This document shows, in pieces, positions 1-12,386 of a DNA stretch of 64,000 nucleotides. Position numbers and translations under genes: made by a program. This DNA is from Clostridia bacterium (GTDB lineage Bacteria; Bacillota; Clostridia; UMGS1883). Positions within the stretch are counted from its first letter, which is position 1; each line of letters opens with the position of its first letter. A model generated the notes under the pieces. It did no database searches and was not told the DNA's origin. It was given only the letters and a program-made list of their open reading frames with translations. Location: positions 163,508-227,507 of the forward strand of contig JAFVPB010000002.1 of assembly GCA_017505525.1 (NCBI GenBank), in the 5' to 3' direction.

Positions 1-687
1 ATCTGTAAGCTCTCCAATGGATAAATTCCTGTCGCCGCATGCCCTTGCGATACATTCTCCCGCCAGAAGCGGACTTATTCCCATAACCTTATCGCAAACT
101 GCCCTGTCGGCTTCTCTGCCCTCGGGCGCATCACAGAGCGCATAATAAAAGTCTTCCGCCGATGCCTCTTCTCCATTAAGCCTTTCTCCCGCAGGAGGCG
201 GAAAATATATAAGTCCCGGCAGCACATTTCGTTTCGAGCTTACAGAAAGGTCGATATGCTTTATAGAATCGGTAATTCTGTTATCGCCGTCAGTTAGAAT
301 AATATTTGAATTTCTTCCCATTATTTCGCACATTAAATGGCGCGTAACAATATCTCCGAGTTCGCTGTAGCACGAAAGCGAAATATCGATTATCCTGTCG
401 AATCCCACTCTTTTAACGCTCTCGATTTTTGCCCCTGTGAGATGCTTTCTTAAAAGCATGCAAAACATTGGAGGTGCTGCGGGATTTTCCTTATTTTTAT
501 CTGTAAAATGAATTCTTGCAGTAGAGCTGTTTGCACTTACAACAAGCCTTTTTGTTTCGCGGTTGGCTTTTATAATAAGCATTAATTCTTCACGTTCGGG
601 CTGATGTATCTTTTCGATTCTTCCGCCGCTGAGTTCATTATTAAGTTCTTCTGCCAAAGCGCTGAGCGCTATCGCATCAAGCGGCAT
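1..687 (-). CDS. rqcH: RqcH/FbpA (NFACT-family ribosome quality-control protein), N-terminal part; the gene runs off the window start
   Basis: Not in the ORF track because it is open at the window edge. My translation from ATG at 687 gives MPLDAIALSALAEELNNELSGGRIEKIHQPEREELMLIIKANRETKRLVVSANSSTARIHFT..., the conserved N-terminus of fibronectin-binding protein A / Rqc2 homologues. Confidence 0.7.
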   Translation of the reverse strand, partial: MPLDAIALSALAEELNNELSGGRIEKIHQPEREELMLIIKANRETKRLVVSANSSTARIHFTDKNKENPAAPPMFCMLLRKHLTGAKIESVKRVGFDRIIDISLSCYSELGDIVTRHLMCEIMGRNSNIILTDGDNRITDSIKHIDLSVSSKRNVLPGLIYFPPPAGERLNGEEASAEDFYYALCDAPEGREADRAVCDKVMGISPLLAGECIARACGDRNLSIGELTD

Positions 688-709
688 AAAATCACCCCTT
701 AAGATATAA

Positions 710-1558
710 CTAAACTATCCTGAATCCGTCGCCTATAATATCACTCGACGTTCCTATTATTGTAAAAGCCTTTTCATCAAGTGCTCTTATCTTATGCTTA
801 AGCCTTACTGCCTGGCGCTTATCCACCACGCAAACAAGCATTCTTTTTTTATCGCCCGTATAAACTCCCTCGCACCCGTTTATAATCGTCGCACCGCGGT
901 CGAGTTCGTTTGTGATAAACCTTGTAATTTCCGCTTCTTTCTCTGTGATAATAAGAAAAAACTTCGATGCATTAAACCCCTCAATCGCATTGTCTACAAC
1001 AAGCGAGCGCACCACAATTGCAAAAAGAGAAAACATTCCAAGCTCTGTTCCAAAAACGGCAATAGATGCACACACAACAAAAAAATCAACCACCAGAAGT
1101 GCTTTTCCTATGTCGAGCCCCGTATGTTTTTTTATTATAAGAGCCACAATATCCGTTCCGCCCGAGCTTGCTTCCTCGTTAAAAAGAATTGCCACTCCGA
1201 AAGAAACAAGTAGCATATCAAAGAAAAGCTCAAGCATTTTCTGGTTTGTAAGAGGGGCATTCATAGGCACAAAAGCTTCAAGTAAATTTAAAAGAATTGA
1301 ATAAAGAAGCGTTGAATACACTGTTTTCAGCGCAAACCCTTTTCCCAGCACAAGGTAACCCAGAAGAAGAAGCAAAAGATTAAGCATTGTTGCAATTCTG
1401 GCAGGAGAAATGTTCCCTGTCAGCTTGCTTAGGATAACAGAAGTTCCGCTTACTCCCCCTGTGGAAAAATTGTTTGCAAACTCGAAAAAATAAACGCCCA
1501 GTACAACAAGTATTGTGCCTAAAGTTATAAAGAAATAGGATTTTACTGTGCTTTTCAT
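710..1558 (-). CDS. YitT-family membrane protein (DUF161/DUF2179 type)
   Basis: ORF 710..1573. Multi-TM N-terminal part and a C-terminal DUF2179-like soluble domain (LIITEKEAEITRFI...GATIINGCEGVYTG). ATG at 1558 has a GAGGAG RBS; the 1573 start is a TTG without one. Confidence 0.8.
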   Translation of the reverse strand: MKSTVKSYFFITLGTILVVLGVYFFEFANNFSTGGVSGTSVILSKLTGNISPARIATMLNLLLLLLGYLVLGKGFALKTVYSTLLYSILLNLLEAFVPMNAPLTNQKMLELFFDMLLVSFGVAILFNEEASSGGTDIVALIIKKHTGLDIGKALLVVDFFVVCASIAVFGTELGMFSLFAIVVRSLVVDNAIEGFNASKFFLIITEKEAEITRFITNELDRGATIINGCEGVYTGDKKRMLVCVVDKRQAVRLKHKIRALDEKAFTIIGTSSDIIGDGFRIV

Positions 1559-1617
1559 AAAAGATCTCCTCAAGGGAATTTTTCTTTTATTTTTTCACAG
1601 CATTATAAATATATTCT

Positions 1618-2409
1618 TTAGTTCAATTTTTCTCTTTCAAGCATTCCGTCGAGAACTTCTTCTATCCATACAAGAAATCTTCCCCACTCATCAGGGTCGA
1701 TAATTGATTCTCCCCTTAACACTGCCTGAAGCTTTTCCTCTGTTTTATTCTGCTGAGGATGGTTTCCTAAAAACAAGTCAACGTGCTCGTCTTTAAGCGC
1801 GTGAAGACCCTTGCGGAAGATTTCTCTTGCATCAAGCGAAAGTCCTTTTCTATTTAAAAACTCCGCCGTCATACTGTTCATTCCTATTCCGCCGTGCATA
1901 GCAGCAATAATCGGCTTTTCTTCGCCGGGCACTTCAATAAAGAACGACATTGTTCCATCAGTGTGCCCCGGTGTGAGTCTTACGCGGATTTTTGTGCTTC
2001 CGAAAGTGAAAACATCTCCGTCTTCCATAAGCACATCACAGTTAAAGAAAGGAAGTATTTCGTAGTTCAGTTCTTCTGCCCACGAAAGATTGTATGTGCC
2101 GTTTAGAATATCGTTATCAATACGGCTGATATATGTTTTCGCACCGCTTAATTCCTTAAATTTTTCGGTACATCCAAAATGGTCGATATGGCCGTGAGAA
2201 TGGAAAATCGCACAGATATCCTTGGGATTAAGCTCAAGCTCTTTCATGCTTTCGAGGATTTGTTCATACATATCGGGATAGCCTGCGTCAATCATAACAA
2301 GGCCTTCCTCTGTTTTTATAAAATGCACAGAAACTCTTGTGCTTCCCGCAAAATAGATATTTTCATACATTTTAAATGGTTTTATATCTGATTTAACCAC
2401 GTTTTCCAT
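1618..2409 (-). CDS. MBL-fold metallo-hydrolase
   Basis: HSHGHIDHFG (HxHxDH) motif plus downstream His/Asp ligands. AAGGAGG RBS before ATG 2409. Confidence 0.8.
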   Translation of the reverse strand: MENVVKSDIKPFKMYENIYFAGSTRVSVHFIKTEEGLVMIDAGYPDMYEQILESMKELELNPKDICAIFHSHGHIDHFGCTEKFKELSGAKTYISRIDNDILNGTYNLSWAEELNYEILPFFNCDVLMEDGDVFTFGSTKIRVRLTPGHTDGTMSFFIEVPGEEKPIIAAMHGGIGMNSMTAEFLNRKGLSLDAREIFRKGLHALKDEHVDLFLGNHPQQNKTEEKLQAVLRGESIIDPDEWGRFLVWIEEVLDGMLEREKLN

Positions 2410-2421
2410 AGCAATTCCTCC

Positions 2422-3825
2422 TTAATAATATTCTCCGTTTATCTCACATTTTGTGATTTTATCTGCCACATTGTTAACGGCATATATATCTCCGTTACCT
2501 GATACTATATCAAAGTCGGAATATACATACGGAGAAACAAGCCTTATCCCCTCGCCGTCGAAGGTATAATAGCCATCATTTACAAGGCTTACGGAATATG
2601 GTGCATAATCCATGTGATTTTCGGGAGACCACAGGCATTTAACATAAAGCTTTCCATTTGCTTTGCCTATAATTTTAATTGAGTTGTAGTCGCCGTAGCT
2701 GATTTCTGTAAGCACACCTTCTTTTGAAAGCTTCCACATTCTTCTGTTTTGAAGGTAGTGCCTGAAGGTAGTTTGAGCATAGTCAACGGTGTTAAAATAT
2801 ATATCTCCGTTCAGCTCATACACATTTTCCACTGTTTTGAAAAGCCCGAGCGGTATTAAAGTGTCGTTTGATTTAATAAAGGTGTGGTTTTCTTTTCTTC
2901 CCCAGTTTCCGTTTTCTCCGTAATTATAAGTATAAATATTAACGTCGACCACTTCCAGAGGAAGATAAACTGACGATGTATATGCAGATACTGTGTACTC
3001 CGCCTCCACAACGTCATCGGGCTTGGCATAGTCATTCTTTGCTTCTTCAATGAAAATGCCATCAAGCTTCTGATCCTTGTAATAAACGCATCCGTCGTTC
3101 ACTGTAACATCAAATTTTGTATTTTGTATAGTATTCTCTTTTTCAACATAGTTGTCAAGCTGCACCATATTCCCAGTGCTATAGTCCAGACTGTAATACT
3201 CTGTTATATAATCATAATCAATGCTTCCGTCTTCAAGAAGAGTTTCTTTATCATAATACAAGCTTAACACAGCATCGTTTTCACGCTTTTCTATAAGCTG
3301 GTAGCGAAAAGCAGTGTTATTTACAGTATTAATCCTAAAGATATTATTCTCAAAGCTTATCTTCCAGCCGAAATTATTAACCGCATATTCCCACGTTGCG
3401 GGAAAATATGTAACTCCACGGAAATTTAAAAGAGGATATTCGCTCGAGCCGTTATCAATCTTTTTTCCATTGACATACACATTATACCCCTTTGGCACTA
3501 CGGCAGTATTATATTTCTGATTTGCCATTGTTTCATAGACAGGCAGCTTATCATCACACGGATTATATGCCACCATAAAAGCCGTACCCTCAAGCCAGCC
3601 TGTGGTAAGATTTAACGCCCTTGCGTATTCGTAAGTCATAGGAATATAGGTTATGCCCTTATAGTTTAAAAAGGGATATAAAGAATCGGCATAATAAACA
3701 AGAGAATCATCAATTATAACCTGATAATCAGGGATTTGCACGCTAACTTCATTATCTGCCGAAGCCGAAAAACAAAAGCAGTTTAAAATAAGCATTACTG
3801 CAACTAAAAACACCATTTTCTTCAT
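2422..3825 (-). CDS. Secreted hypothetical protein (signal peptide; two stalk-like repeats, then a probable beta-propeller-like region)
   Basis: N-terminal MKKMVFLVAVMLILNCFCFSASA signal peptide. Duplicated motif YKGITYIPMTYEYARALN / FRGVTYFPATWEYAVNNFGW. GGAGG RBS. Confidence 0.6.
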   Translation of the reverse strand: MKKMVFLVAVMLILNCFCFSASADNEVSVQIPDYQVIIDDSLVYYADSLYPFLNYKGITYIPMTYEYARALNLTTGWLEGTAFMVAYNPCDDKLPVYETMANQKYNTAVVPKGYNVYVNGKKIDNGSSEYPLLNFRGVTYFPATWEYAVNNFGWKISFENNIFRINTVNNTAFRYQLIEKRENDAVLSLYYDKETLLEDGSIDYDYITEYYSLDYSTGNMVQLDNYVEKENTIQNTKFDVTVNDGCVYYKDQKLDGIFIEEAKNDYAKPDDVVEAEYTVSAYTSSVYLPLEVVDVNIYTYNYGENGNWGRKENHTFIKSNDTLIPLGLFKTVENVYELNGDIYFNTVDYAQTTFRHYLQNRRMWKLSKEGVLTEISYGDYNSIKIIGKANGKLYVKCLWSPENHMDYAPYSVSLVNDGYYTFDGEGIRLVSPYVYSDFDIVSGNGDIYAVNNVADKITKCEINGEYY

Positions 3826-3999
3826 AATTCATTTCCTCCTTTTCTCGTCCCGAAGGGATATATCGCATTACGAAGTAATATATCGCACCGCAAGGTATAT
3901 CGCAAATTCCACAGGAAATTTATATCACTGAGTTTATCTTCGATGAAATAATTATATGATTTTGTCAAGTCAGGGACAAAAAATTAGTTTTGTAAATTA

Positions 4000-4587
4000 T
4001 TACTCATTTTCTTCTTTCTTGACGCAATACCCATAAGTGTAAATACTATTTGCGGTGCCATGCTCATATCTTGCCATAACTCTGATAACCGGGAACAAGA
4101 CAGTATTTTCATCAACTCTTACACTAATACTTGTTTCACTCTTACAATCGTTCAAATCCCATTGACCGCCATAGTTTGAAATTATAGTTTCTCCAACATA
4201 AACACCCAAAGCAAAAAGTATCCTGCCTGTATTTTGCGATAGAATACCATCATCCTTGTTTTGCTCATCAAAGAAACGATCAACATCTTTTAAGCTTTCA
4301 ATCGAAAAATCTGCCTGGTAGCCTGATGATTCAAGAGCTGTTTTTATCCATTCTTTAGCCGTAACAATATCCTTTTTCAATGATTCTATATCAAGAGATT
4401 GTTTTTCAGGAGAATTTGATGCAATTCTTATTATGACTACAACTGCTGTTAATCCCATTAAAATTAACCTTGGCATTATATCCATTATTGAGTTTCCTTC
4501 AGATATTGTACCATACACAATCATTCCAAGACATATTATTAAGATTGCAATTAAAGTTATTATTTTTGTTTTTGCTGACATTTTCAT
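4000..4587 (-). CDS. Hypothetical membrane protein (2 TM helices plus a C-terminal soluble domain)
   Basis: ORF track 195 aa. Two hydrophobic helices in the first 60 aa. I recognise no family signature. Confidence 0.5.
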   Translation of the reverse strand: MKMSAKTKIITLIAILIICLGMIVYGTISEGNSIMDIMPRLILMGLTAVVVIIRIASNSPEKQSLDIESLKKDIVTAKEWIKTALESSGYQADFSIESLKDVDRFFDEQNKDDGILSQNTGRILFALGVYVGETIISNYGGQWDLNDCKSETSISVRVDENTVLFPVIRVMARYEHGTANSIYTYGYCVKKEENE

Positions 4588-4823
4588 TTTCCTTTTTCTT
4601 TTTATGCTTTATTCGTTTTTGTCCCTTGTATATCAAAGCTTATGATTTTGTCAAGTTAGGGACAAAAAAAATTCAATGGTTTATCGGCGGTTTTCAAAAC
4701 CGCCAATAAATTCATACGATTAAAATGCCTTTCTAAAGGCTTCCCCTTGAGGGGAAGCTGTCACGAAGTGACTGATGAGGTGTTAATATGATTCAGTATA
4801 TCCTGACATACATTTTCAAATCT

Positions 4824-5126
4824 TTAATTAACATCTAAATTGGAATATCTCAATACTTTAATTCCTAAATTATTTAGAAATTCATCTCTTTTTGTATCAT
4901 TTTCTATACCACTCTCTCCATAGTGTTGTGAACCATCAAGTTCAATAACAATTTTAGCCGATGCAATATAGAAATCAACGATATAATTGCCAATCACCTT
5001 TTGTCGATTAACAGTTATAGGTAAAGTTTTCAGAAAATCATACCAAAGATGTCTTTCTTCTTTTGTCATATTTTTTCTTAATGTTTTTGCATTACCCGTT
5101 AATTTTGAATTATTAGTCTTGTTCAT
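4824..5126 (-). CDS. DUF559 (Vsr-like endonuclease fold) domain protein
   Basis: LRKNMTKEERHLWYDFL...FRRQ-like core...DFYIASAKIVIELDGSQH...D..RD..L...G..VLR, the typical DUF559 pattern. ATG at 5126 is preceded by a GAGGTGG RBS; the longer 5153 start would include the flanking repeat. Confidence 0.75.
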   Translation of the reverse strand: MNKTNNSKLTGNAKTLRKNMTKEERHLWYDFLKTLPITVNRQKVIGNYIVDFYIASAKIVIELDGSQHYGESGIENDTKRDEFLNNLGIKVLRYSNLDVN

Positions 5127-5435
5127 TTCCACCTCATCCGAGTTGCTTCGCAACCCACCTTCCCCTCAAGGGGAAGGCTTTTTTGTCCCTTGTATATCAA
5201 ACTTTAAAATCAATGAATAATTTAGATGCCACTGTTTTTTTGTCGATATGTAGACTTCGTCTACTCGATATTTTTACTTCGTAAAATCGATATGTTTTCC
5301 CTTTGGTCAAACTCGATATGATATAAATCTCGTTGCGTCAGTAACATATCGAGCCGTCAGGCATATCGAGTGCTTTAGCATATATCGAAAATCTCGCAAG
5401 AGATTTATATCGCTGAATTCATCTCCGATGAATTC

Positions 5436-5464
5436 ATTATACCACACATATTTCCCACATTCAA
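5436..5464 (-). promoter_or_regulatory. Sigma-A type promoter reading toward the hairpin array and the DUF559 gene
   Basis: Minus strand TTGAAT (5464-5459), 17 nt, TGgTATAAT (-10 at 5441-5436, extended -10 TG). It lies directly after the terminator of the upstream operon. Confidence 0.55.
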
Positions 5465-5477
5465 GGCTTCAGCCCCA

Positions 5478-5516
5478 TAAAAAAGATTGGTGCATAGTTT
5501 TTCACTGCACCAATCT
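5478..5516 (-). terminator. Rho-independent terminator of the MATE/ceramidase-like operon
   Basis: 11-bp stem agattggtgca / tgcaccaatct followed by a T-run on the minus strand. Confidence 0.7.
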
Positions 5517-5521
5517 GCATA

Positions 5522-6856
5522 TCAGAGTTCGTTTAAAAGCTTTACCATACCATCAACCATAATATTATCCCCACCCGGAGCAAGTGAAGAACCTCTGGCC
5601 TCGTATCCGCCTTCTTCATATGCCTGTGTTGTAGGAATATAACCGCCAGCACTGTTGGTAAGGCAACACAGTATTGTTGTGCTAAAAGGAGATTCGGCAC
5701 AAATACGGTTTCCTATCTCTGTAAAGGGTTCTCCACCTATTCCTGCAAATACTAAATCTCCAACTTTAATTGCCGAAAAATTAAATTTAAATGCCTCAGG
5801 GCCATTTTCAAGCTTAACAATGCGACTAGCTTCTGCAACCGCCGTAGTAAGCTCCATTTCCTTGTATGGAAGCTCATTCGCTCTGCCTGCTTCGTACAAT
5901 TCAAATATCTTTTTTGCTTCCTCGAGCCTGTCATTCTCCTGATGTGACGGGAGCATCACCGAGCTTTTCGCAAACGATATTTTATCAGCTTTAATCTTTT
6001 CCGTTATGGAACACACCGAAAGCACTGCACCTGCAATTACTCTGCCCATATGCTCCGCGTGCTTTATACTTCTGGGAACTCCGTCGAAATCAATTTCCGA
6101 AATATCGCTTTCTCCCTTTGTTGGCCTTACATTTACGTGATTAACATCTCCCTGAGGTGCAAGAAGAAACATACATTTTGTATTGGGAACAGCATTTTCA
6201 ATGATTGAGCAGACATACCCCATATAATCGGCACTTATATACTCTCCGCCTACGGAATCGGGATGTGTGCCGAAATTGACAATAAATATATCGTCCTTAT
6301 TTTCTCTTACTATTTTAACAAGCTTTACCGTCTCATTAGGTGTTCCCAGAGCGTGGTCAATATCAGGATTATTCACGCCTGGATTTGTTGCAACCGAGCC
6401 GTCTTTCATACGATAGCGACGTATAAAGGATATATTTTTTGCCTCGCCTTGTGCTGTTTCGATTGACGATTCACAAAGGTCGTTAAAAGCATACACTGCC
6501 GCATCACGCACGCAGGACACGAGAAAAGCATCATAGGCTTCAGTGCTTTTTTTATCCGATGCAAAGTCTTTACCCACAAGTGGTCCTGTGTGGGTATGCG
6601 AGCAATTAATAAATATTGCATTTTCATCAATTCCTGCAGCCTCACTAACAGCCTTCTTAAAATCGTCATAATATTTCTGCGCAGGAGTACATAAATCAAC
6701 TGCAATAACCACAGCTTTCTTTTCTCCATCATCAAATGCCGTTGCCCTGACATATAAATCATCCTGTATACCTTTCACAAAACGCGGCTCGTAATATCCC
6801 ACAATTGGAGAGCCGTAGGGCGGATTGATACACACTTTTGAAAAACCTGTTTTCAT
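5522..6856 (-). CDS. Neutral/alkaline ceramidase-like N-terminal-domain family hydrolase (function uncertain)
   Basis: MKTGFSKVCINPPYGSPIVGYY...DDLYVRATAFDDGEKKAVVIAVDLC... resembles the neutral ceramidase-like family. ATG at 6856 avoids overlap with the MATE stop at 6880. Confidence 0.55.
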   Translation of the reverse strand: MKTGFSKVCINPPYGSPIVGYYEPRFVKGIQDDLYVRATAFDDGEKKAVVIAVDLCTPAQKYYDDFKKAVSEAAGIDENAIFINCSHTHTGPLVGKDFASDKKSTEAYDAFLVSCVRDAAVYAFNDLCESSIETAQGEAKNISFIRRYRMKDGSVATNPGVNNPDIDHALGTPNETVKLVKIVRENKDDIFIVNFGTHPDSVGGEYISADYMGYVCSIIENAVPNTKCMFLLAPQGDVNHVNVRPTKGESDISEIDFDGVPRSIKHAEHMGRVIAGAVLSVCSITEKIKADKISFAKSSVMLPSHQENDRLEEAKKIFELYEAGRANELPYKEMELTTAVAEASRIVKLENGPEAFKFNFSAIKVGDLVFAGIGGEPFTEIGNRICAESPFSTTILCCLTNSAGGYIPTTQAYEEGGYEARGSSLAPGGDNIMVDGMVKLLNEL

Positions 6857-6879
6857 AAACACACGTCCTTTACAATATT

Positions 6880-8253
6880 TTATATTGTTGCTTCGCAAAG
6901 TTCTCTTTCCCCTGTAAGTTTTTTCTTTAATTTACCCATTGCAGGGAAATAGAAAAGAAGAAGCGTTATAATAGATGATATCCAACCTATCGGCCAGATA
7001 AGATATAAAAATGTGAGGTTTGGATAAAGCGGGAAAATATAGTGCACCCACGGGAAGCGTATCAGGCACATAAATACCATAGTTGAAACGGCAGGAATAA
7101 TGGGTTTTCCCATGCCCTTAAGTGCTCCTCCCATAATCTCGTTTATTCCGAAAAGAAAATATGTACTCGATACAATTATCATTTTCTGCTGAGAATATTT
7201 TATAACTTCAGGTGTTGTCGACATAATTGATGACAACTCCGCTGAAAAGAATGCTGAAAGCAAACCAAACGTCAGCCCGAAGCTTGCCGTAATCAAAGTT
7301 GCACGCAGCACCGTTTTTTTCACCCTGTCGAGATTTCCTGCACCTATATTCTGGGCGACATAAGGAATAGCCGCAAGCGAAGGAGCATATATAATCTGAT
7401 ACATTATCCCGTCAAACTGATTTGCAATTGAAACGCCCGTTGTGGCGTTCTCTCCAAAGCTGTTTACCACCGTCATAATAACAACATTGGCAAAAGAATA
7501 CATTGCCGTTTGAAGGCCCGACGGAACTCCTATATAAAGCATTTCTTTAAGTTCGTTGCCATATAATCCTAATTTTTTCAATTCAAACTGAAGCGCTTCA
7601 GTTTTCGCCACAGCAAAAAATGCTAAAAGACATATCACAAAGCTTGATATATTTGTTGCGATACTAACGCCCTTAACCCCCATGTCAAATACCGCTACAA
7701 AAAGCAGCGTAAATGCCACTTTTACTATTCCGCCAAGAATAAGGAAATACATTGGTCTTTTCGTATCTCCTGCAGCGCGCATAATTGCCGCACAAAAATT
7801 ATAAAGCATTAAAAACGGTATGCCGTAGAAATATATTCTGAAATACGTTGTTGCCGCCTTAAGCAGAGTATCGGGGCAGTTCGTCATTTTCAAAAAGGCT
7901 TCTGCAAACACTGCCCCGATGGTCATCAGTAAAAGTCCGCCCAGAACAGAGAATAAAAGAGCCGTCATTGTTGCTTTTTTAACACGCTCTTTATTTCCAA
8001 GCCCTATTCTTTTGGCAACCACTATGTTTGCTCCCACCGAAATTCCGATAAGAAGACTGGTGCAAAGCGTTATAAGCGAGCCCGAAGCCCCTACCGCGCC
8101 AACCGCACTGTCGCTCGAAAAGGTTTTAAGCACTGTCATATCTATAATGCCAAACACTATTTGCATAACGTTCATTACCATAATGGGCAAAGCAAGTATC
8201 AGCAAGCCTTTTACAATTGAACCCGAAAGCATATCAACATTTCTCTTTTTCAC
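6880..8253 (-). CDS. MATE-family efflux transporter
   Basis: 12-TM protein, 457 aa, with the N-terminal MATE signature (LALPIMVMNVMQIVFGIIDMTVL). GTG start with AGAGGTG RBS. Confidence 0.9.
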   Translation of the reverse strand: MKKRNVDMLSGSIVKGLLILALPIMVMNVMQIVFGIIDMTVLKTFSSDSAVGAVGASGSLITLCTSLLIGISVGANIVVAKRIGLGNKERVKKATMTALLFSVLGGLLLMTIGAVFAEAFLKMTNCPDTLLKAATTYFRIYFYGIPFLMLYNFCAAIMRAAGDTKRPMYFLILGGIVKVAFTLLFVAVFDMGVKGVSIATNISSFVICLLAFFAVAKTEALQFELKKLGLYGNELKEMLYIGVPSGLQTAMYSFANVVIMTVVNSFGENATTGVSIANQFDGIMYQIIYAPSLAAIPYVAQNIGAGNLDRVKKTVLRATLITASFGLTFGLLSAFFSAELSSIMSTTPEVIKYSQQKMIIVSSTYFLFGINEIMGGALKGMGKPIIPAVSTMVFMCLIRFPWVHYIFPLYPNLTFLYLIWPIGWISSIITLLLFYFPAMGKLKKKLTGERELCEATI

Positions 8254-8382
8254 TGCAGATGCACCTCTTTAGCTTATTTCATTCGAAATTATAGCACTTT
8301 ACATATCAAAGTGTTATGTAATTTTATAAATTAACTTGCACAAAAGATAGATTTATTATATAATGAACAAGAGGTTGATGTT

Positions 8383-9099
8383 ATGAGCTACTTAATAAAT
8401 AAGATAGACTGGCTTTCTACGGTACACAAGCACAGTGCATACGAAATCATTGTACATATCAGTGGAAGAGGTATATTACATACCGAAGAAAAGGATTTTA
8501 ATGTGTCCCCGGGAAAGATTATAATTGTTCCGCCCGGCACTTTTCACAACGCCATCGCTGATGAGGAAATGATAAGAATATATATATGCGGAGATTTTAA
8601 CCAGATTTTCAACCTCTCTTCCACCGTTATAATTTCCGATAATGCTGAAAGAGATGGGGCTTCTCTTGCGAAAATGATTTATAACAATCGTTATGAAAAT
8701 CCTGATTACGTAGCATCTCTATGTAATGCATTTGCTCATTTTCTTGTGCAGAATCTGAAAATGGATGATGATATTGGTACGGCAATCAGGGAAATTATAT
8801 ACGAAATAACTACTAACTTTTCTGATTGCAATATTAATCTGTGCCACATTTTGCACAAAAGCGGTTACTCCGAGGACTACATACGCTCGCAATTTAAAAA
8901 ACACACTAAAAAAACTCCCACTGAATTTCTCAGTGATATAAGAATACGCCACGCCCGCTATTTGATAGATATATACAGAAATACTCTTCCACTTTGTGAA
9001 ATTGCAGAAAAATGCGGATACACCGATTATGTGTATTTTTCGCGCAAATTCAAACAGATAACGGGCATGTCTCCGCAAAAATATAAGGACTTATGTTAG
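8383..9099 (+). CDS. AraC-family transcriptional regulator (cupin sensor plus HTH)
   Basis: C-terminal double HTH (IAEKCGYTDYVYFSRKFKQITGMSPQKYK). Divergent from the MATE operon. Confidence 0.85.
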   Translation: MSYLINKIDWLSTVHKHSAYEIIVHISGRGILHTEEKDFNVSPGKIIIVPPGTFHNAIADEEMIRIYICGDFNQIFNLSSTVIISDNAERDGASLAKMIYNNRYENPDYVASLCNAFAHFLVQNLKMDDDIGTAIREIIYEITTNFSDCNINLCHILHKSGYSEDYIRSQFKKHTKKTPTEFLSDIRIRHARYLIDIYRNTLPLCEIAEKCGYTDYVYFSRKFKQITGMSPQKYKDLC

Positions 9100-9118
9100 T
9101 TTTCTTGATAAAAATATG

Positions 9119-9147
9119 TTGAAAAGAAGATAAAATTGTTGTATAAT
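9119..9147 (+). promoter_or_regulatory. Promoter of zapA
   Basis: TTGAAA (9119-9124), 17 nt, TATAAT (9142-9147). Confidence 0.5.
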
Positions 9148-9178
9148 CAAATAGATATAATAATCAGGAGGCAAAACA

Positions 9179-9559
9179 ATGGAAGAAAAAAGAAATACCA
9201 CCGTTGTAAGAATAAACAATGCCGAATACAGAATCGTAAGCGATGCCGACGAGGAATATGTTCGCCACGTTGCTTTTCACGTTGATAAAAAAATGCGCGA
9301 TTTAATCGCGCGTGATAAAAGGCTTTCAACATCTATGGCGGCAGTTCTCACTGCAGTGAATTGTGCAGATGAATATATGCAGTCGCAGGAAGATAACGAG
9401 AAGCTTCGTGCTCAGCTTTTAAAATATGCTGAAGAAGCAGGTGCAAGCAAGCTTGCTCTTGATAAGCTTAATGCAGAGGTTTCGCGTTTGCGCGCAGAAA
9501 ATCAATCGCTTAAAATGAATGTTGTAAAGCTTGAAACAGAAATGAAGCAGTTAAAATAA
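9179..9559 (+). CDS. zapA: Cell division protein ZapA
   Basis: N-terminal VVRINNAEYRIVSDADEEYVRHVAFHVDKKMRDL followed by a coiled-coil tail. AGGAGG RBS. Confidence 0.8.
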   Translation: MEEKRNTTVVRINNAEYRIVSDADEEYVRHVAFHVDKKMRDLIARDKRLSTSMAAVLTAVNCADEYMQSQEDNEKLRAQLLKYAEEAGASKLALDKLNAEVSRLRAENQSLKMNVVKLETEMKQLK

Positions 9560-9611
9560 AATCAAGGAGAGCACGTTATCAGAATTTTTCTGATAACGTG
9601 ATTTTATTAAA

Positions 9612-11681
9612 ATGAAACATACAGGTAAAATCGAGCTTCTTTCCCCTGCAGGCAAGCCCGAAGCTTTAAAGGCGGCTGTGCAAAACGGTGCCGATGCAGT
9701 GTATTTAGGTGCAAAAAGCTTCAGCGCAAGAAAAAATGCCGTAAATTTTTCGTGGGAAGAGCTTAAAGAAGCAGTAAAATATTGCCACGTACGGGGCACG
9801 AAAGTGCATCTTACATTAAACACCCTTATAGATGAAAGCGAGCTTGAGGAATTTGAAGAATCAGTTCGTAATGCCGCCAAAGCAGGCGTTGATGCACTTA
9901 TAATTCAAGACCTTGGCGGTGCCAGAATAGCGCGCAGCGTATGCCCCGATATGGAGCTTCACGCAAGCACGCAGTTAACGGCGTGTAATTTAGAAGATGT
10001 GAAAGCACTGGAAGAGCTTGGTTTTTCAAGAGTTGTGCTCGCACGCGAGCTTTCGATGGCAGAGATTGAGTATATCTGTGAAAACTGTAATGCTGAAATT
10101 GAGGTTTTTGCCCACGGTGCACTTTGCGTATGTATGTCGGGCAAGTGCCTTATGTCGTCATTTATCGGAATGCGAAGCGGAAACAGAGGTGCTTGTGCCC
10201 AGCCTTGCAGGCAGCTCTATAGTGCAGAAGGAAAAAAAGGGTATTTTCTCAGCCCGCGTGATTTATGCCTTGCCGATGAAATATCGGCTTTAAGAAAAGC
10301 AGGTGTTAAAAGCATTAAAATCGAGGGCAGAATGAAAAGCAGTGAATACGTTGCGGCAGTAACCTCTGTGTACAGAAAGTATATCGACGAGGATTTAAAG
10401 CTTCAGAAAGAGGATGAAGACTACCTGAAAAAAATTTTTGTGCGTGGCGACAGTTTTACTAAAGGGTATTTTAAAGGTTTAAACACTCCCGAAATTATGA
10501 ACTACACACAATCCAACGATAATATTACCTATAAAGCAGATAAAGCCGCCCTCAGCAAAGCGCAGAATTCTTTCCGCGATGGAATTGAAAATAAAAAAAT
10601 ACCGATAAGCGCTTTCTTCTGCGCTAAAACGGGCGAAAAAGCAACGCTCACGCTTACTGATTGCGACGGAAACTCCGTTTGCGTTTATGGTGCAGAAGGC
10701 GAGCTTGCACAAAAAACACCGCTGACTGAAGAAGGTGTGAAATCAAGAATAGCAAAAATGGGGCAAACACCTTTCGAGCTTGATTCTTTCACTGCAGAGC
10801 TTTCAGAAAACGTGATACTTTCTGCCGCTGATATAAACGCCTTAAGGCGTGAAGCATCACAAAAGCTTATGGAGAAGCGTGCAGAAATAAAGCCGCTTGA
10901 TTCTTTCCCTTTTTCTTATAAAAGGGCTGAAAAAAAGCGTGTCATCCCATTATATATCGCTTCACAGGTACAAACAAAAGAGCAGTTTATTGCTTCAAAC
11001 GGAGCCGATAGAATTCTTGTTCCGCTAAGCTTATGGAACAAGGTTGAAACAGATGAAAAATGTGCTATGGTTCTCCCTCAGGTAGTTTTCGATGAAAAGC
11101 TGGTTATAAAAGAGATAGAAAAGAAAAAGCCGCATTTTGCCTACACATCGTCAATCGGAATGGCAAAAATGCTGAAAGATTTTGGGATAAATGTTATTCT
11201 TGATTTCGGGTTTAATATTTACAACAGTGTAGCTCTTCATGAGGCAGAAAAATTTGCCGATGCTCTTACGCTTTCTCCCGAGCTATCACTTGAAAAAATT
11301 TCGCATCTTACTGCATATACTGATAAAAAGTGCGAAGCTCTGTGCTATGGAAAATTCACTCTTATGACAACGCGCGCCTGCCTTATCAAAGGCGCACGCG
11401 GAAAATGCGAGTGCGAAAATCCAATACATTTCAAGGATAAAACTGGAGCTGTATTCACAGTTTTCGGCGATAAGCTTACGCATTTAAACACTCTTGTAAA
11501 TTCACGCCCTACATTTATGGCAGATAAAATGCCGCTTCTTAAAAAGAGTGGGCTTTCGGGAATACGGCTTGTTTTCACAGAGGAAGATGGAGCTGAAGTT
11601 AAAAGCATTATAAATATGCACAAGGGCACAGTTAAAGCGGATAAACCGCCTCTCTTTACAAGAGGATATTTTCTTAAATAG
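9612..11681 (+). CDS. Peptidase U32 family protein (long form with C-terminal extension)
   Basis: ELLSPAGKPEALKAAVQNGADAVYLG..., the conserved E-x-F-x-H-G-A-L-C core (EVFAHGALCVCMSGKC) and a Cys cluster. Confidence 0.85.
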   Translation: MKHTGKIELLSPAGKPEALKAAVQNGADAVYLGAKSFSARKNAVNFSWEELKEAVKYCHVRGTKVHLTLNTLIDESELEEFEESVRNAAKAGVDALIIQDLGGARIARSVCPDMELHASTQLTACNLEDVKALEELGFSRVVLARELSMAEIEYICENCNAEIEVFAHGALCVCMSGKCLMSSFIGMRSGNRGACAQPCRQLYSAEGKKGYFLSPRDLCLADEISALRKAGVKSIKIEGRMKSSEYVAAVTSVYRKYIDEDLKLQKEDEDYLKKIFVRGDSFTKGYFKGLNTPEIMNYTQSNDNITYKADKAALSKAQNSFRDGIENKKIPISAFFCAKTGEKATLTLTDCDGNSVCVYGAEGELAQKTPLTEEGVKSRIAKMGQTPFELDSFTAELSENVILSAADINALRREASQKLMEKRAEIKPLDSFPFSYKRAEKKRVIPLYIASQVQTKEQFIASNGADRILVPLSLWNKVETDEKCAMVLPQVVFDEKLVIKEIEKKKPHFAYTSSIGMAKMLKDFGINVILDFGFNIYNSVALHEAEKFADALTLSPELSLEKISHLTAYTDKKCEALCYGKFTLMTTRACLIKGARGKCECENPIHFKDKTGAVFTVFGDKLTHLNTLVNSRPTFMADKMPLLKKSGLSGIRLVFTEEDGAEVKSIINMHKGTVKADKPPLFTRGYFLK

Positions 11682-11693
11682 GAAGTGATTTAA

Positions 11694-12386
11694 TTGAAAG
11701 AACATATTTACACCATACCAATTACCGACGCATTAAACGAGGAATGTGGTTGCGTTCTTTGCAGCATTGAAAAAAAGCTTGAAAGCGAGGCTATCACCTA
11801 TTTTCTGGGGGCATCACTTATGGAGCCCGATGCAAGGGAAGATACGAATAAGAACGGCTTTTGCCGTCCTCACACAAAAATGCTTTATGAGGGTGGAAAC
11901 TCCCTCGGGCTTAGCCTGATACTTGAAACGCACATTAAAGAATTTTCCAAAAATTTTACCTTAAACGAAAAAACAGGTCTTTTTAAAAAGCCCGACACCA
12001 AGGAAACTGCAAAAAAAATTGACGATGCCGTAAAAAGCTGCTCTGTTTGTAATAAGCTTAATTCACAGATGGAAGCGGTGGCACGCAACCTTATATATTT
12101 AATAAGCAAGGAAAAGGATTTTAAGGAAAAGTTCTTTGAAAAAGGTGCGCTCTGTGCCGAGCACGCTTCTCTTGTTCTTTCGCTTTGCGAAAAAGAGCTT
12201 GGTGGAAAAAAAGGCACAGATTTATATAATGAAATCTCTGCTATGCAAAGGGCATACCTTGAAGAATTATATAATAATCTTCACGCCTTTGTGGTAAGCT
12301 TTGACTACCGAAGCAATGGAGAAAAGCCATCGGAAAAAGTAAAAGCTTCGCTTGGGGAAGCAGTAAAATATATTTCAAAATACTAA
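11694..12386 (+). CDS. DUF6062-like Cys-rich hypothetical protein
   Basis: TTG start. IYTIPITDALNEECGCVLCSIEKKLE...FCRPH...CSVCNKL...LCAEH pattern. The family assignment is from memory. Confidence 0.5.
   Translation: MKEHIYTIPITDALNEECGCVLCSIEKKLESEAITYFLGASLMEPDAREDTNKNGFCRPHTKMLYEGGNSLGLSLILETHIKEFSKNFTLNEKTGLFKKPDTKETAKKIDDAVKSCSVCNKLNSQMEAVARNLIYLISKEKDFKEKFFEKGALCAEHASLVLSLCEKELGGKKGTDLYNEISAMQRAYLEELYNNLHAFVVSFDYRSNGEKPSEKVKASLGEAVKYISKY

What the first reader, a model, noticed from the sequence alone, without database searches (positions are those of the whole stretch)
5242..5441. Second, bipartite hairpin/ATATCGA array (array 2) arranged as two inverted sub-arrays directly behind a strong promoter
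Plus strand first half: tcgatat GTAGAC-ttc-GTCTAC tcgatat TTTTAC-ttc-GTAAAA tcgatat ... tcgatat. The orientation then flips: atatcga GCC-gtca-GGC atatcgag TGC-ttta-GCA tatatcga AAATCTC-gcaa-GAGATTT atatcgc TGAATTCATC-tcc-GATGAATTCA. In total there are eight copies of the TCGATAT/ATATCGA linker, four in each orientation, interleaved with unrelated self-complementary stems. An extended -10 promoter (TTGAAT-17-TGgTATAAT, 5464-5436, minus strand) fires straight into the array, and the DUF559 gene lies about 300 nt downstream. Together with array 1, these elements bracket a 1.4-kb two-gene segment. The same family signature in both orientations suggests either a DNA-level protein-binding or recombination substrate, or a structured RNA leader.
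Basis: seen in the sequence. Interest (0 to 1): 0.65.

Follow-up and report, generated by a model that had tools for sequence, protein, structure and literature searches.

The report
Gut-1-like bipartite hairpin-ladder repeat element
The "array" is one complete copy of a roughly 200-base repeat found scattered between genes in many gut Clostridia: eight small hairpins joined by eight identical 7-base linkers, related to the orphan Gut-1 RNA motif, predicted to zip into a ladder of four-way junctions, with unknown function.

Summary
Window 5243-5413 holds eight 7-nt linkers (4x TCGATAT, then 3x ATATCGA plus ATATCGC) separated by unrelated perfect hairpins.

It is one complete copy (about 5235-5441) of a discrete 170-200-nt element seen in at least 60 gut Clostridia loci, with a fixed order: hpA-L1-hpB-L2-hpC-L3-hpD-L4-hpE-centre-L5-hpF-L6-hpG-L7-hpH-L8-CAAAA.

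- **Structure:** hairpins covary (93-95% paired; 29 of 36 tested pairs change on both sides). Linkers are invariant, and the first four complement the last four. RNA folding (13 of 15 elements) and DNA folding (both window strands) therefore predict a ladder of stacked four-way junctions.
- **Closest known:** the orphan Gut-1 RNA motif (RF01706). Array 1 scores 35 bits (threshold 50). Genuine Gut-1 hits are the first halves of sister elements with GUGAUAU/AUAUCAC linkers, and one hybrid links the classes.
- **Distribution:** copies have sharp ends, unrelated flanks and diverse housekeeping neighbours. They are absent from six related ceramidase-gene loci.

Best reading: a dispersed structured intergenic element acting as single-stranded nucleic acid, probably RNA, with a generic function not specific to DUF559. 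A DNA-level or mobile reading is not excluded. New variant of a known kind.

The parts
5235..5441 (-). One complete bipartite element. Read on the minus strand: (TATAAT) hpA, L1-L4 with hpB-hpE (R half), centre, L5-L8 with hpF-hpH (L half), CAAAAAAA tail.
   Evidence: It is 88-89% identical to elements in L108 and L122, which lie in other gene contexts.
5459..5464 (-). -35-like hexamer TTGAAT. This is flank, not part of the repeat.
   Evidence: Similarity to array 1 stops at the -10 (D1).
5436..5444 (-). Extended -10-like TGgTATAAT. Its last T is the first base of hpA.
   Evidence: TATAAT abuts hpA also in window array 1, L019, L045, L103 and L094.
5414..5436 (-). hpA: 10-bp hairpin TGAATTCATC gga GATGAATTCA. 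This is the long, variable terminal hairpin of the family.
   Evidence: In 5 of 26 relatives hpA is an intrinsic, often bidirectional, terminator.
5407..5413 (-). Linker L1 (GCGATAT on the minus strand).
5389..5406 (-). hpB: AAATCTC ttgc GAGATTT (X loop X'). L1 bases 3-7 plus X (GATATAAATCTC, 5411-5400) are also complementary to the centre.
   Evidence: helix 1: 96% paired, 4 of 7 pairs change on both sides.
5382..5388 (-). Linker L2 (TCGATAT).
5370..5381 (-). hpC: ATGC taaa GCAC. The outer pair is A.C on the minus strand and G.T on the plus strand.
   Evidence: helix 2: all 4 pairs covary.
5363..5369 (-). Linker L3 (TCGATAT).
5353..5362 (-). hpD: GCC tgac GGC.
   Evidence: helix 3: all 3 pairs covary.
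5346..5352 (-). Linker L4 (TCGATAT).
5332..5345 (-). hpE: GTTAC tgac GCAAC, the central hairpin.
   Evidence: helix 4.
5320..5331 (-). Centre segment GAGATTTATATC (X'-ATATC). It can form the 12-bp long-range helix P1 with GATATAAATCTC at 5411-5400.
   Evidence: 99.4% paired, 2 covarying pairs (UA 15 / GC 4; AU 15 / GC 4).
5313..5319 (-). Linker L5 (ATATCGA).
5294..5312 (-). hpF: GTTT-GA-CC aaa GG-GA-AAAC, with a tandem G.A/A.G pair that is conserved across species.
   Evidence: (48 G.A cells, 46 in the L half).
5287..5293 (-). Linker L6 (ATATCGA).
5272..5286 (-). hpG: TTTTAC gaa GTAAAA.
   Evidence: helix 3.
5265..5271 (-). Linker L7 (ATATCGA).
5250..5264 (-). hpH: GTAGAC gaa GTCTAC.
   Evidence: helix 4. 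It differs from L108 and L122 (GCAAAC/GTTTGC) by two double changes.
5243..5249 (-). Linker L8 (ATATCGA), the end of the repeated unit.
5235..5242 (-). CAAAAAAA tail. CAAAA follows L8 in most relatives.
3848..3956 (-). Array 1: a paralogous R-half-only copy with TATAAT, hpA, GTGATAT, hpB, 3x GCGATAT with hpC and hpD, and hpE. It runs straight into the ribosome-binding site of the 467-aa gene.
   Evidence: D1. Gut-1 RF01706 scores 35.2 bits, E 7.7e-6, on the minus strand at 3855-3930.

Best explanation
Array 2 is one full copy of a discrete, dispersed, 170-200-nt structured intergenic element of gut Clostridia. It is a bipartite relative of the Gut-1 RNA motif.

Proposed mechanism: it works as a single-stranded nucleic acid, most likely RNA made from the window's minus strand, either from the abutting -10 or by read-through from the upstream gene.
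1. The first half folds into hairpins hpB-hpE, separated by free UCGAUAU linkers.
2. When the second half emerges, its AUAUCGA linkers pair with the first-half linkers in antiparallel order (L4:L5, L3:L6, L2:L7, L1:L8).
3. The result is an almost fully paired rod: three perfect four-way junctions plus an apical junction.
4. A 12-bp alternative helix (P1: L1+X with the centre) competes with hairpin hpB.

What is shown:
- the hairpins, and one of the two competing helices, are under selection;
- linker complementarity is conserved across linker classes;
- the ladder is the predicted minimum-energy fold;
- the element is a discrete multi-copy unit in varied contexts.

What is inferred:
- that it is transcribed;
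- that its role is generic at boundaries between transcription units (a nuclease-resistant, insulating or stabilising module, as for REP/BIME or BOX elements), not regulation of DUF559.
For: **Family and architecture**
At least 63 are hairpin arrays, all in Clostridia, Oscillospiraceae, Acutalibacteraceae or Christensenellaceae assemblies.
- 26 full elements share the same order of parts.

**Selection on structure**
- R half: 93.1% of cells paired against 26-46% when partners are slid. 14 of 18 pairs change on both sides. Covariation score 0.59 against 0.235 in shuffles.
- L half: 94.7% paired, 15 of 18 pairs change on both sides, score 0.65.
- P1: 99.4% paired, with two covarying pairs.

**Linker complementarity**
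- ATATCGA second halves go with TCGATAT first halves.
- All 8 bipartite ATATCAC elements have GTGATAT in the other half.
- The same holds in the flanks of the Gut-1 seed alignment.

**Folding**
- The ladder is the minimum-energy RNA fold in 13 of 15 elements. It is 20-27 kcal/mol better than hairpins alone.
- z-scores for the window element are -3.8 (RNA) and -6.7 (DNA).

**Link to Gut-1**
- Array 1 scores 35 bits on the minus strand.
- Genuine Gut-1 hits of 59-75 bits are the first halves of sister elements.
- L291 is a hybrid between the linker classes.

**Strand and transcription hints**
- The upstream gene is co-oriented in 17 of 22 cases, and no element lies between divergent genes.
- A sense-strand terminator follows L8 in about 9 of 26 elements.
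- The tandem G.A motif in hpF is strand-specific. G.U pairs (9) outnumber A.C pairs (2) on this strand.

**Generic context**
- Neighbours include rpoD, transketolase, PFOR, metK, obg/rpmA, ksgA, MATE transporters and tRNA or 5S genes.
Against: - There is no direct evidence of transcription or of its direction. Metatranscriptome contigs cover the arrays only at depth 0-8, are unstranded, and could come from paralogues or DNA.
- G.U pairs are almost absent: 9 of 764, against 4.6% in unidirectional terminators from the same loci.
- Both strands fold equally well.
- Read in the ATATCGA direction, both halves carry GAA/GNNA loops. On any single strand, half of the loops are therefore UUC/UNNC, which is odd for one RNA.
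- In several relatives hpA is a terminator with a U-tract placed before the element, which would limit transcription from upstream.
- From the window's -10 the transcript would start inside hpA.
- Linker pairing cannot be tested by covariation within a class, because the linkers are invariant. Class-level matching would also follow from inverted duplication, or from one factor that reads every linker.
- Half-elements such as array 1 cannot form the ladder in cis. Array 1 alone has no thermodynamic signal as RNA (z -0.43).
Confidence: 0.5

Rival explanations
1. It is a DNA-level element: a non-autonomous mobile or REP-like repeat. Its hairpin ladder would form in single-stranded DNA, or as a branched cruciform, and be recognised by a transposase, recombinase or topoisomerase. 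Under this reading, any RNA structure is a by-product.
For: - The unit is sharply bounded and its flanks are unrelated. L083 holds two copies about 90% identical; L071 holds two about 97% identical.
- Elements 88-89% identical to the window's lie in other gene contexts in other species.
- The element is absent downstream of the homologous ceramidase gene in six relatives.
- G.U pairs are almost absent, and both strands fold equally well.
- c-GAA-g loops appear on opposite strands in the two halves. From my own knowledge, this is the d(GCGAAGC)-type very stable DNA mini-hairpin.
- Elements often sit right beside terminators and tRNA genes, as some hairpin-targeting mobile elements do.
Against: - No terminal inverted repeats or target duplications were seen in the two copy pairs examined.
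- No transposase, RAYT or DUF559 gene is consistently linked: 1 and 2 of about 120 loci respectively.
- Stems of 3-6 bp are too short to extrude from duplex DNA on their own.
- Hairpins differ between subfamilies by compensated changes, which indicates long-term selection on pairing.
- The tandem G.A in hpF, and G.U pairs outnumbering A.C pairs, point to one functional strand.
- This reading is not exclusive of an RNA role.
Confidence: 0.28
2. The bipartite element is two independent Gut-1-like small-RNA units lying back to back. Each would be transcribed outward from the centre in its ATATCGA direction. The R unit would end at hpA as its terminator. The L unit would end at a downstream terminator or run into the next gene.
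For: - GAA/GNNA loops occur in the ATATCGA direction in both halves.
- hpA is often a bidirectional terminator with a T-run on that side.
- Terminators follow L8 in about 9 of 26 elements.
- Single halves exist on their own, such as array 1 and L020.
- The AT-rich centre offers -10-like hexamers (TGATATAAA / TATCAT).
Against: - There is no conserved -35.
- In L050, L059, L081 and L123 the centre changes GATAT to GAGAT with a compensating ATATC to ATCTC. This destroys the -10-like hexamers but keeps pairing.
- Rfam models Gut-1 on the opposite strand for the R half.
- Convergent layouts (++++----) also occur.
Confidence: 0.12
3. It is a double-stranded protein-binding array (operator- or iteron-like), or a site-specific inversion or recombination substrate, controlling the adjacent promoter and the DUF559 segment.
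For: - Eight identical 7-bp sites lie in two orientations next to promoter-like sequences.
- The arrays bracket a 1.4-kb segment rich in repeats.
Against: - The spacers are under selection to be self-complementary, which a duplex-binding model does not explain.
- Site spacing is 17-26 bp and not helically phased.
- Gene contexts are diverse, and many copies lie far from promoters.
- No opposite-strand joints or array-skipping joints above the background from paralogues were seen in four metagenomes holding this strain.
Confidence: 0.05

Closest known systems
Gut-1 RNA motif (Rfam RF01706; Weinberg et al. 2010, PMC2864571)
   Same: - Both have three small covarying hairpins between four copies of a conserved 7-nt linker (GUGAAAU/GUGAUAU there, (U/G)CGAUAU here), with cUUCg-type loops on that strand.
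- Both come from gut organisms.
- Both lie just after the 3' end or terminator of a co-oriented gene.
- The flanks of the published seed alignment already show a second half with inverted AUAUCAC linkers and the same long-range complementarity.
- Genuine Gut-1 hits are the first halves of such bipartite elements, and L291 is a hybrid of the two linker classes.
   Different: - The linker sequence differs.
- Scores are below the family threshold: array 1 at 35.2 bits and array 2 at 12.2 bits, against 50.
- None of 18 ATATCGA-class loci is picked up at the threshold.
- The Rfam model and the paper cover only half of the element. The paper says only that the motif occurs in human-gut sequences, with no organism or function known.
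- The bipartite layout, complementary linkers, host taxa and dispersal are not described there.
REP/BIME elements of enterobacteria (own knowledge)
   Same: - Both are multi-copy extragenic palindromic units.
- Both are clustered in alternating orientation with short linker motifs.
- Both are found after gene 3' ends and between convergent or co-oriented genes, not between divergent ones.
- Proposed roles for REP/BIME are mRNA 3'-end protection, termination and topology.
   Different: - In REPs the palindrome sequence is conserved. Here the stems vary and the linkers are conserved.
- No RAYT association was found.
- The fixed 4+4 layout with cis-complementary linkers has no REP counterpart.
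BOX elements of Streptococcus pneumoniae and Correia/NEMIS elements of Neisseria (own knowledge)
   Same: - All are modular intergenic repeats of about 100-200 nt whose two ends pair into a long structure when transcribed.
- All are dispersed in many contexts.
- All can bring promoter -10 elements or terminators to neighbouring genes and change mRNA stability.
   Different: - There is no sequence relationship.
- Those elements have terminal inverted repeats and, for Correia, target duplications. Neither was seen here.
- None of them is built from a series of independent hairpins with invariant linkers.

Membership tests
Gut-1 RNA (RF01706) | Covariance-model score at or above the curated gathering score (50 bits). 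| tested here: not met
   Array 1 scores 35.2 bits (E 7.7e-6, full-length, minus strand). Array 2's best score is 12.2 bits (E 9). No hit at threshold in 18 ATATCGA-class loci.
Gut-1 RNA (RF01706) | Three covarying hairpins separated by four copies of one conserved 7-nt linker of the form G-Y-G-A-W-A-U. | tested here: met
   hpB, hpC and hpD lie between (G/U)CGAUAU linkers, and covariation is supported. The alignment to the Gut-1 consensus is shown.
Gut-1 RNA (RF01706) | Continuity with genuine members: the same larger element and intermediate forms. | tested here: met
   Hits of 59-75 bits are the first halves of ATATCAC-class bipartite elements with the same centre and P1 layout. L291 joins a Gut-1 first half to a second half with AUAUCGA/C linkers. 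The seed flanks show the same layout.
Gut-1 RNA (RF01706) | Expressed as an RNA on the modelled strand. | not testable with these tools
   Only unstranded contigs of metatranscriptomes were available, with depth 0-8 over the arrays.
REP/BIME | Conserved palindrome sequence repeated across the genome. | tested here: not met
   Stem sequences differ between copies and species. Only the linkers are conserved.
REP/BIME | Association with a RAYT (IS200-like Y1 transposase) flanked by the repeats. | tested here: not met
   A translated search of all loci found a RAYT-like gene near one array only (L033), and it was not flanked by arrays.
MITE (non-autonomous DNA transposon) | Terminal inverted repeats and target-site duplication. 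| tested here: inconclusive
   Two intragenomic copy pairs show sharp ends (about 5 nt before hpA, to L8 plus CAAA) and unrelated flanks, but no terminal inverted repeat or target duplication was recognised. No empty site was available.
CRISPR array | Direct repeats of about 23-50 nt with unique non-palindromic spacers, and cas genes nearby. | tested here: not met
   Repeats are 7 nt and occur in two orientations. Spacers are 10-19-nt palindromes. Rfam found no CRISPR repeat at threshold.
Gene-specific cis-regulatory leader or riboswitch | Consistent position upstream of one class of genes. | tested here: not met
   Flanking genes are diverse. About a third of elements face the 3' end of the downstream gene.

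The most novel reading that the evidence does not exclude
The element is a new kind of self-assembling nucleic-acid device. It would be a chain of perfect four-way junctions whose rungs are addressable 7-nt linkers (classes CGA, CGC, CAC, CAT and UUUCAC-type) and which has a built-in two-state switch (hpB versus the 12-bp P1 helix). It would spread as a discrete unit. Half-elements such as array 1 would pair in trans with matching halves elsewhere, giving class-specific RNA-RNA or DNA-DNA contacts between distant loci or transcripts.
Probability: 0.12. Interest if true: 0.85.

Novelty: new variant of a known kind. Interest (0 to 1): 0.55.

Why it matters
Gut-1 has stood since 2010 as an orphan motif known only from human-gut reads, with no host and no function. 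This locus adds several things.
- **Larger element:** the described motif is only the first half of a larger, strictly organised element.
- **Hosts:** the carriers are Oscillospiraceae, Acutalibacteraceae and Christensenellaceae of ruminant and other guts.
- **Linker classes:** several co-exist within one genome.
- **Testable fold:** a ladder of stacked four-way junctions with a competing helix.
- **Genomic behaviour:** it acts as a dispersed, sharply bounded repeat that can sit at terminators and can bring a -10 box to a neighbouring gene.

If the ladder forms, it would be an unusual natural RNA or DNA architecture. If the element is mobile, its mechanism is unknown. For annotation, these arrays break short-read assemblies and are missed by Rfam at threshold.

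Tried and rejected
- **Hammerhead ribozyme:** the CTGATGAG next to the DUF559 gene suggested one, but Rfam found none.
- **Integron attC-like cassette junctions:** I considered this for the TTTTTGTCCCT...AGGGACAAAAA module. I found no integrase-like gene among ORFs of at least 100 aa at 1-12000, the core sites do not fit, and I did not pursue it further.
- **Inversion or excision between arrays 1 and 2:** four DNA metagenomes with this strain show only low-depth joints, attributable to paralogous repeats, and no strand-switch joints at the arrays. The contig breaks at 3889 seen in three samples are explained by repeat depth of 4-9x.
- **Synteny test:** six related loci carrying homologues of the ceramidase-like gene (75-87% identity) have different downstream genes and no array. 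They showed absence but gave no empty site.
- **RNA evidence:** two searches for RNA runs gave only unstranded contigs with marginal cover, or runs that held only a few per cent of the query words and were not examined.
- **Protein partners:** DUF559 and RAYT are not consistently linked to arrays.
- **Phage origin:** only about 5 of 119 viral-contig pattern hits are true arrays.
- **Promoter in the centre of the element:** rejected as the main reading, because compensated changes break the -10-like hexamers.
- **RNAalifold on MAFFT alignments:** gave poor consensus structures, so I specified structures by hand and tested them with pair counts.
- **Literature:** searches found nothing on Gut-1 after 2010 in the held library.
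Full report
**1. The observation**

Reading window 3200-6200 confirms the array.
- On the plus strand, TCGATAT occurs at 5243, 5265, 5287 and 5313.
- ATATCGA occurs at 5346, 5363 and 5382, and ATATCGC at 5407.
- ATATCGA occurs 24 times in the 64-kb window against 8.6 expected, and no shuffle reached 24. Seven of these lie within 146 nt.
- Every interval between linkers is a perfect small hairpin.
- The promoter-like site TTGAAT-17-TGgTATAAT (5464-5436, minus strand) is the best consensus match in the region.
- Array 1 (3848-3956) is real. Positions 3896-3956 are 80% identical to 5381-5441, and the differences in the stems are compensatory (D1).

**2. It is a family, with a fixed architecture**

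The window is identical to a gut-metagenome scaffold.

- At least 63 are hairpin arrays. All are from Clostridia, Oscillospiraceae, Acutalibacteraceae, Christensenellaceae or 'Eubacteriales' gut assemblies.
- The remaining hits are mostly tandem repeats or chance matches in other phyla; a few are Clostridia arrays that the strict hairpin filter missed.
- The commonest layout is four linkers in one orientation followed by four in the other, as in the window.

Twenty-six full elements share one order of parts. Read on the strand that corresponds to the window's minus strand, the order is:
- hpA, a long variable hairpin;
- L1 (TCGATAT), then hpB (X-loop-X');
- L2, hpC, L3, hpD, L4, hpE;
- a centre segment, X'-ATATC;
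- L5 (ATATCGA), then hpF, which carries a conserved tandem G.A;
- L6, hpG, L7, hpH, L8, and then CAAAA.

The window element (5441-5235) is 88-89% identical to elements in L108 and L122, which lie in unrelated gene contexts.

**3. Evidence of selection on structure**

Stems are almost entirely Watson-Crick: 753 Watson-Crick cells, 9 G.U, 2 A.C and 48 G.A. Of the G.A cells, 46 are in the L half, mostly the tandem motif of hpF.

Pair counts on MAFFT alignments that were not fitted to the structure:

| Region | Cells paired | Paired when partners slid | Pairs changed on both sides | Covariation score |
|---|---|---|---|---|
| R half (hpB-hpE) | 93.1% | 26-46% | 14 of 18 | 0.59 (0.235 in shuffles) |
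| L half (hpF-hpH) | 94.7% | not noted here | 15 of 18 | 0.65 |

A long-range helix, P1, is also supported.
- It pairs GATAT+X (the tail of L1 plus the 5' arm of hpB) with X'+ATATC in the centre.
- It is 99.4% paired and has two covarying positions. One is GATAT to GAGAT matched by ATATC to ATCTC, in L050, L059, L081 and L123.
- P1 and hpB are mutually exclusive, so the element carries a built-in alternative pairing.

**4. The linkers**

Within a linker class the linkers are invariant, so covariation cannot test whether they pair. However, the first four are always the complement of the last four.
- TCGATAT pairs with ATATCGA in the 26 elements.
- GTGATAT pairs with ATATCAC in all 8 bipartite ATATCAC-class elements from a metagenome scan, in L033, and in the published Gut-1 seed flanks.
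- L291 is a hybrid of the two classes.
- Several classes co-exist in one genome (ATATCGA, ATATCGC, ATATCAC, ATATCAT, ATTTCAT).

Folding results:
- The minimum-energy RNA fold pairs L1:L8, L2:L7, L3:L6 and L4:L5 in 13 of 15 elements.
- This gains 20-27 kcal/mol over hairpins alone and 3-10 kcal/mol over a forced P1.
- The result is a rod of three perfect four-way junctions closed by hpE.
- The window element folds this way as RNA (z -3.8 and -4.9 for the two strands) and as DNA (z -6.65 and -6.80).
- Array 1 alone has no such signal (z -0.43).

**5. What is known**

Relaxed Rfam scans give one meaningful hit. Array 1, on the minus strand, matches Gut-1 (RF01706) full-length at 35.2 bits, below the gathering score of 50. 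Array 2 reaches only 12 bits.

Gut-1 was described in 2010 as an RNA motif found only in human-gut sequences, with no organism or function known (PMC2864571). The held library contains nothing later on it.

The seed alignment's flanks show the inverted second half. Genuine Gut-1 hits of 59-75 bits are the first halves of ATATCAC-class bipartite elements, often about 35 nt after tRNA or 5S genes. None of 18 ATATCGA-class loci reaches the threshold.

The window's arrays therefore belong to the same superfamily. They are a linker-class variant that Rfam does not capture, and the bipartite architecture is undescribed.

**6. Genomic behaviour**

- **Discrete unit:** the element has sharp boundaries. 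Two copies in L083 (about 90% identical) and two in L071 (about 97% identical) are similar from about 5 nt before hpA to L8, and their flanks are unrelated.
- **Neighbours:** flanking genes are diverse housekeeping genes.
- **Orientation:** the upstream gene is co-oriented in 17 of 22 cases. Downstream genes face either way. No element lies between divergent genes.
- **Terminators:** hpA is an intrinsic, often bidirectional, terminator in 5 of 26 elements. A sense-strand terminator follows L8 in about 9 of 26.
- **Absent at related ceramidase-gene loci:** six loci of related species carrying homologues of the ceramidase-like gene lack any array.
- **Repeat depth:** in metagenomes holding this strain, the arrays have 4-9x the depth of flanking genes. 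This explains why contigs break at 3889.
- **No linked enzyme:** no transposase, RAYT or DUF559 gene is consistently linked.
- **Rare in viral contigs:** about 5 of 119 pattern hits are true arrays.

**7. RNA or DNA?**

For RNA on the R-then-L strand:
- the Gut-1 precedent;
- co-orientation with upstream genes and avoidance of divergent intergenic regions;
- downstream terminators;
- the strand-specific tandem G.A in hpF;
- G.U pairs (9) outnumbering A.C pairs (2).

Against RNA, or for a role of both strands or of DNA:
- G.U pairs make up only 1.2% of stem pairs, against 4.6% in unidirectional terminators of the same loci;
- both strands fold equally well;
- read in the ATATCGA direction, both halves carry GAA/GNNA loops, so any single strand has half UUC/UNNC loops;
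- c-GAA-g is, from my own knowledge, the very stable d(GCGAAGC) type of DNA mini-hairpin;
- in some relatives a terminator precedes the element.

Metatranscriptome contigs give only marginal, unstranded cover. The question stays open. I put RNA function at about one half and a DNA-level or mobile reading at about one quarter. The two are not exclusive.

**8. The window locus**

On the minus strand the order is:
1. the terminator of the MATE/ceramidase-like gene pair (about 5520-5480);
2. -35 and -10 (5464-5436);
3. the element (5436-5243) and its CAAAAAAA tail;
4. half of a promoter-like module (5206-5180);
5. a 55-nt repeat that carries the ribosome-binding site;
6. the DUF559 gene (5126-4824);
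7. the same 55-nt repeat, inverted;
8. a bidirectional terminator (4680-4710);
9. the full promoter-like module (4669-4616);
10. a 195-aa gene;
11. the other half of the module, fused to TATAAT-hpA of array 1 (R half only);
12. the ribosome-binding site and the 467-aa gene.

Within the 64 kb, all of these repeats occur only in this stretch. The -10 abutting hpA is part of the repeat, because similarity between arrays 1 and 2 ends there. The -35 is supplied by the flank. A transcript from this -10 would start inside hpA. The element may therefore donate a -10 box, as Correia elements do, but that is inference.

**9. Verdict**

It is wrong in tying the array to DUF559 or to recombination. The element is a new variant of a known but uncharacterised kind. 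It is moderately interesting because it more than doubles the known extent of an orphan motif, names its hosts, and yields a concrete, unusual and testable fold.

Noticed in passing
window 4735-4787 (+) and 5125-5181 (-): The DUF559 gene is flanked by inverted copies of a roughly 55-nt repeat. The repeat has the hairpin CTTCCCCTTGAGGGGAAG, then a second hairpin with a cGAAg loop that differs between the copies by compensated changes (GTCAC/GTGAC versus GTTGC/GCAAC), then GATGAGGTG (ribosome-binding site) and ATG. Its depth is 58x the genomic baseline in DNA metagenomes and 177-497 in RNA runs. Downstream continuations are diverse, so it precedes many different genes in the community. The left copy opens a 16-codon ORF on the plus strand. 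The same repeat type lies next to an element in viral contig L142.
   Followed up: partly
window 4616-4669; halves at 3955-3983 and 5180-5206: A promoter-like module, TTTTTGTCCCT-aac-TTGACA-N17-TATACA-AGGGACAAAAA, bounded by a 12-nt inverted repeat. The same module follows L8 of the element in L019, L108 and L122. In L019 the ribosome-binding site starts right after TATACA, so it may not be a simple promoter.
   Followed up: partly
window 3889: Contigs from three independent runs all end at exactly this base, inside array 1. Repeat depth (4-9x) is the likely cause, not rearrangement.
   Followed up: yes
L324 438-835; L271 425-606; L291 1509-1693; L041 2739-3378; L047 1958-2261: Elements, including genuine Gut-1 hits, lie 35-45 nt after co-oriented tRNA or 5S rRNA genes. 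hpA serves as the operon's terminator.
   Followed up: partly
L291 about 1400-1590: A hybrid element. Its first half has GUGAUAU linkers and scores 63.9 bits on Gut-1. Its second half has AUAUCGA/AUAUCGC linkers.
   Followed up: partly
L018, minus strand, about 6190-5950: Two arrays lie in direct orientation with different linker classes: ATATCGA x4, then ATTTCAT x4. Six loci (L044, L077, L082, L097, L101, L109) have the convergent layout ++++---- instead of ----++++.
   Followed up: no
L045 4236-4420: A 59-codon ORF with a ribosome-binding site starts 15 nt after L8. From memory, its sequence resembles four-helix-bundle (23S rRNA intervening-sequence) proteins. I did not test this.
   Followed up: no
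L153 5380-5760 and L236: In these viral-contig copies of the element, a roughly 120-nt insertion interrupts the second half.
   Followed up: no
window 4000-4587 and 2422-3825: The 195-aa membrane protein has only a weak DUF3806 match, and the 467-aa protein with a hydrophobic, signal-like N-terminus has no Pfam match. Both sit inside or beside the repeat cluster.
   Followed up: no
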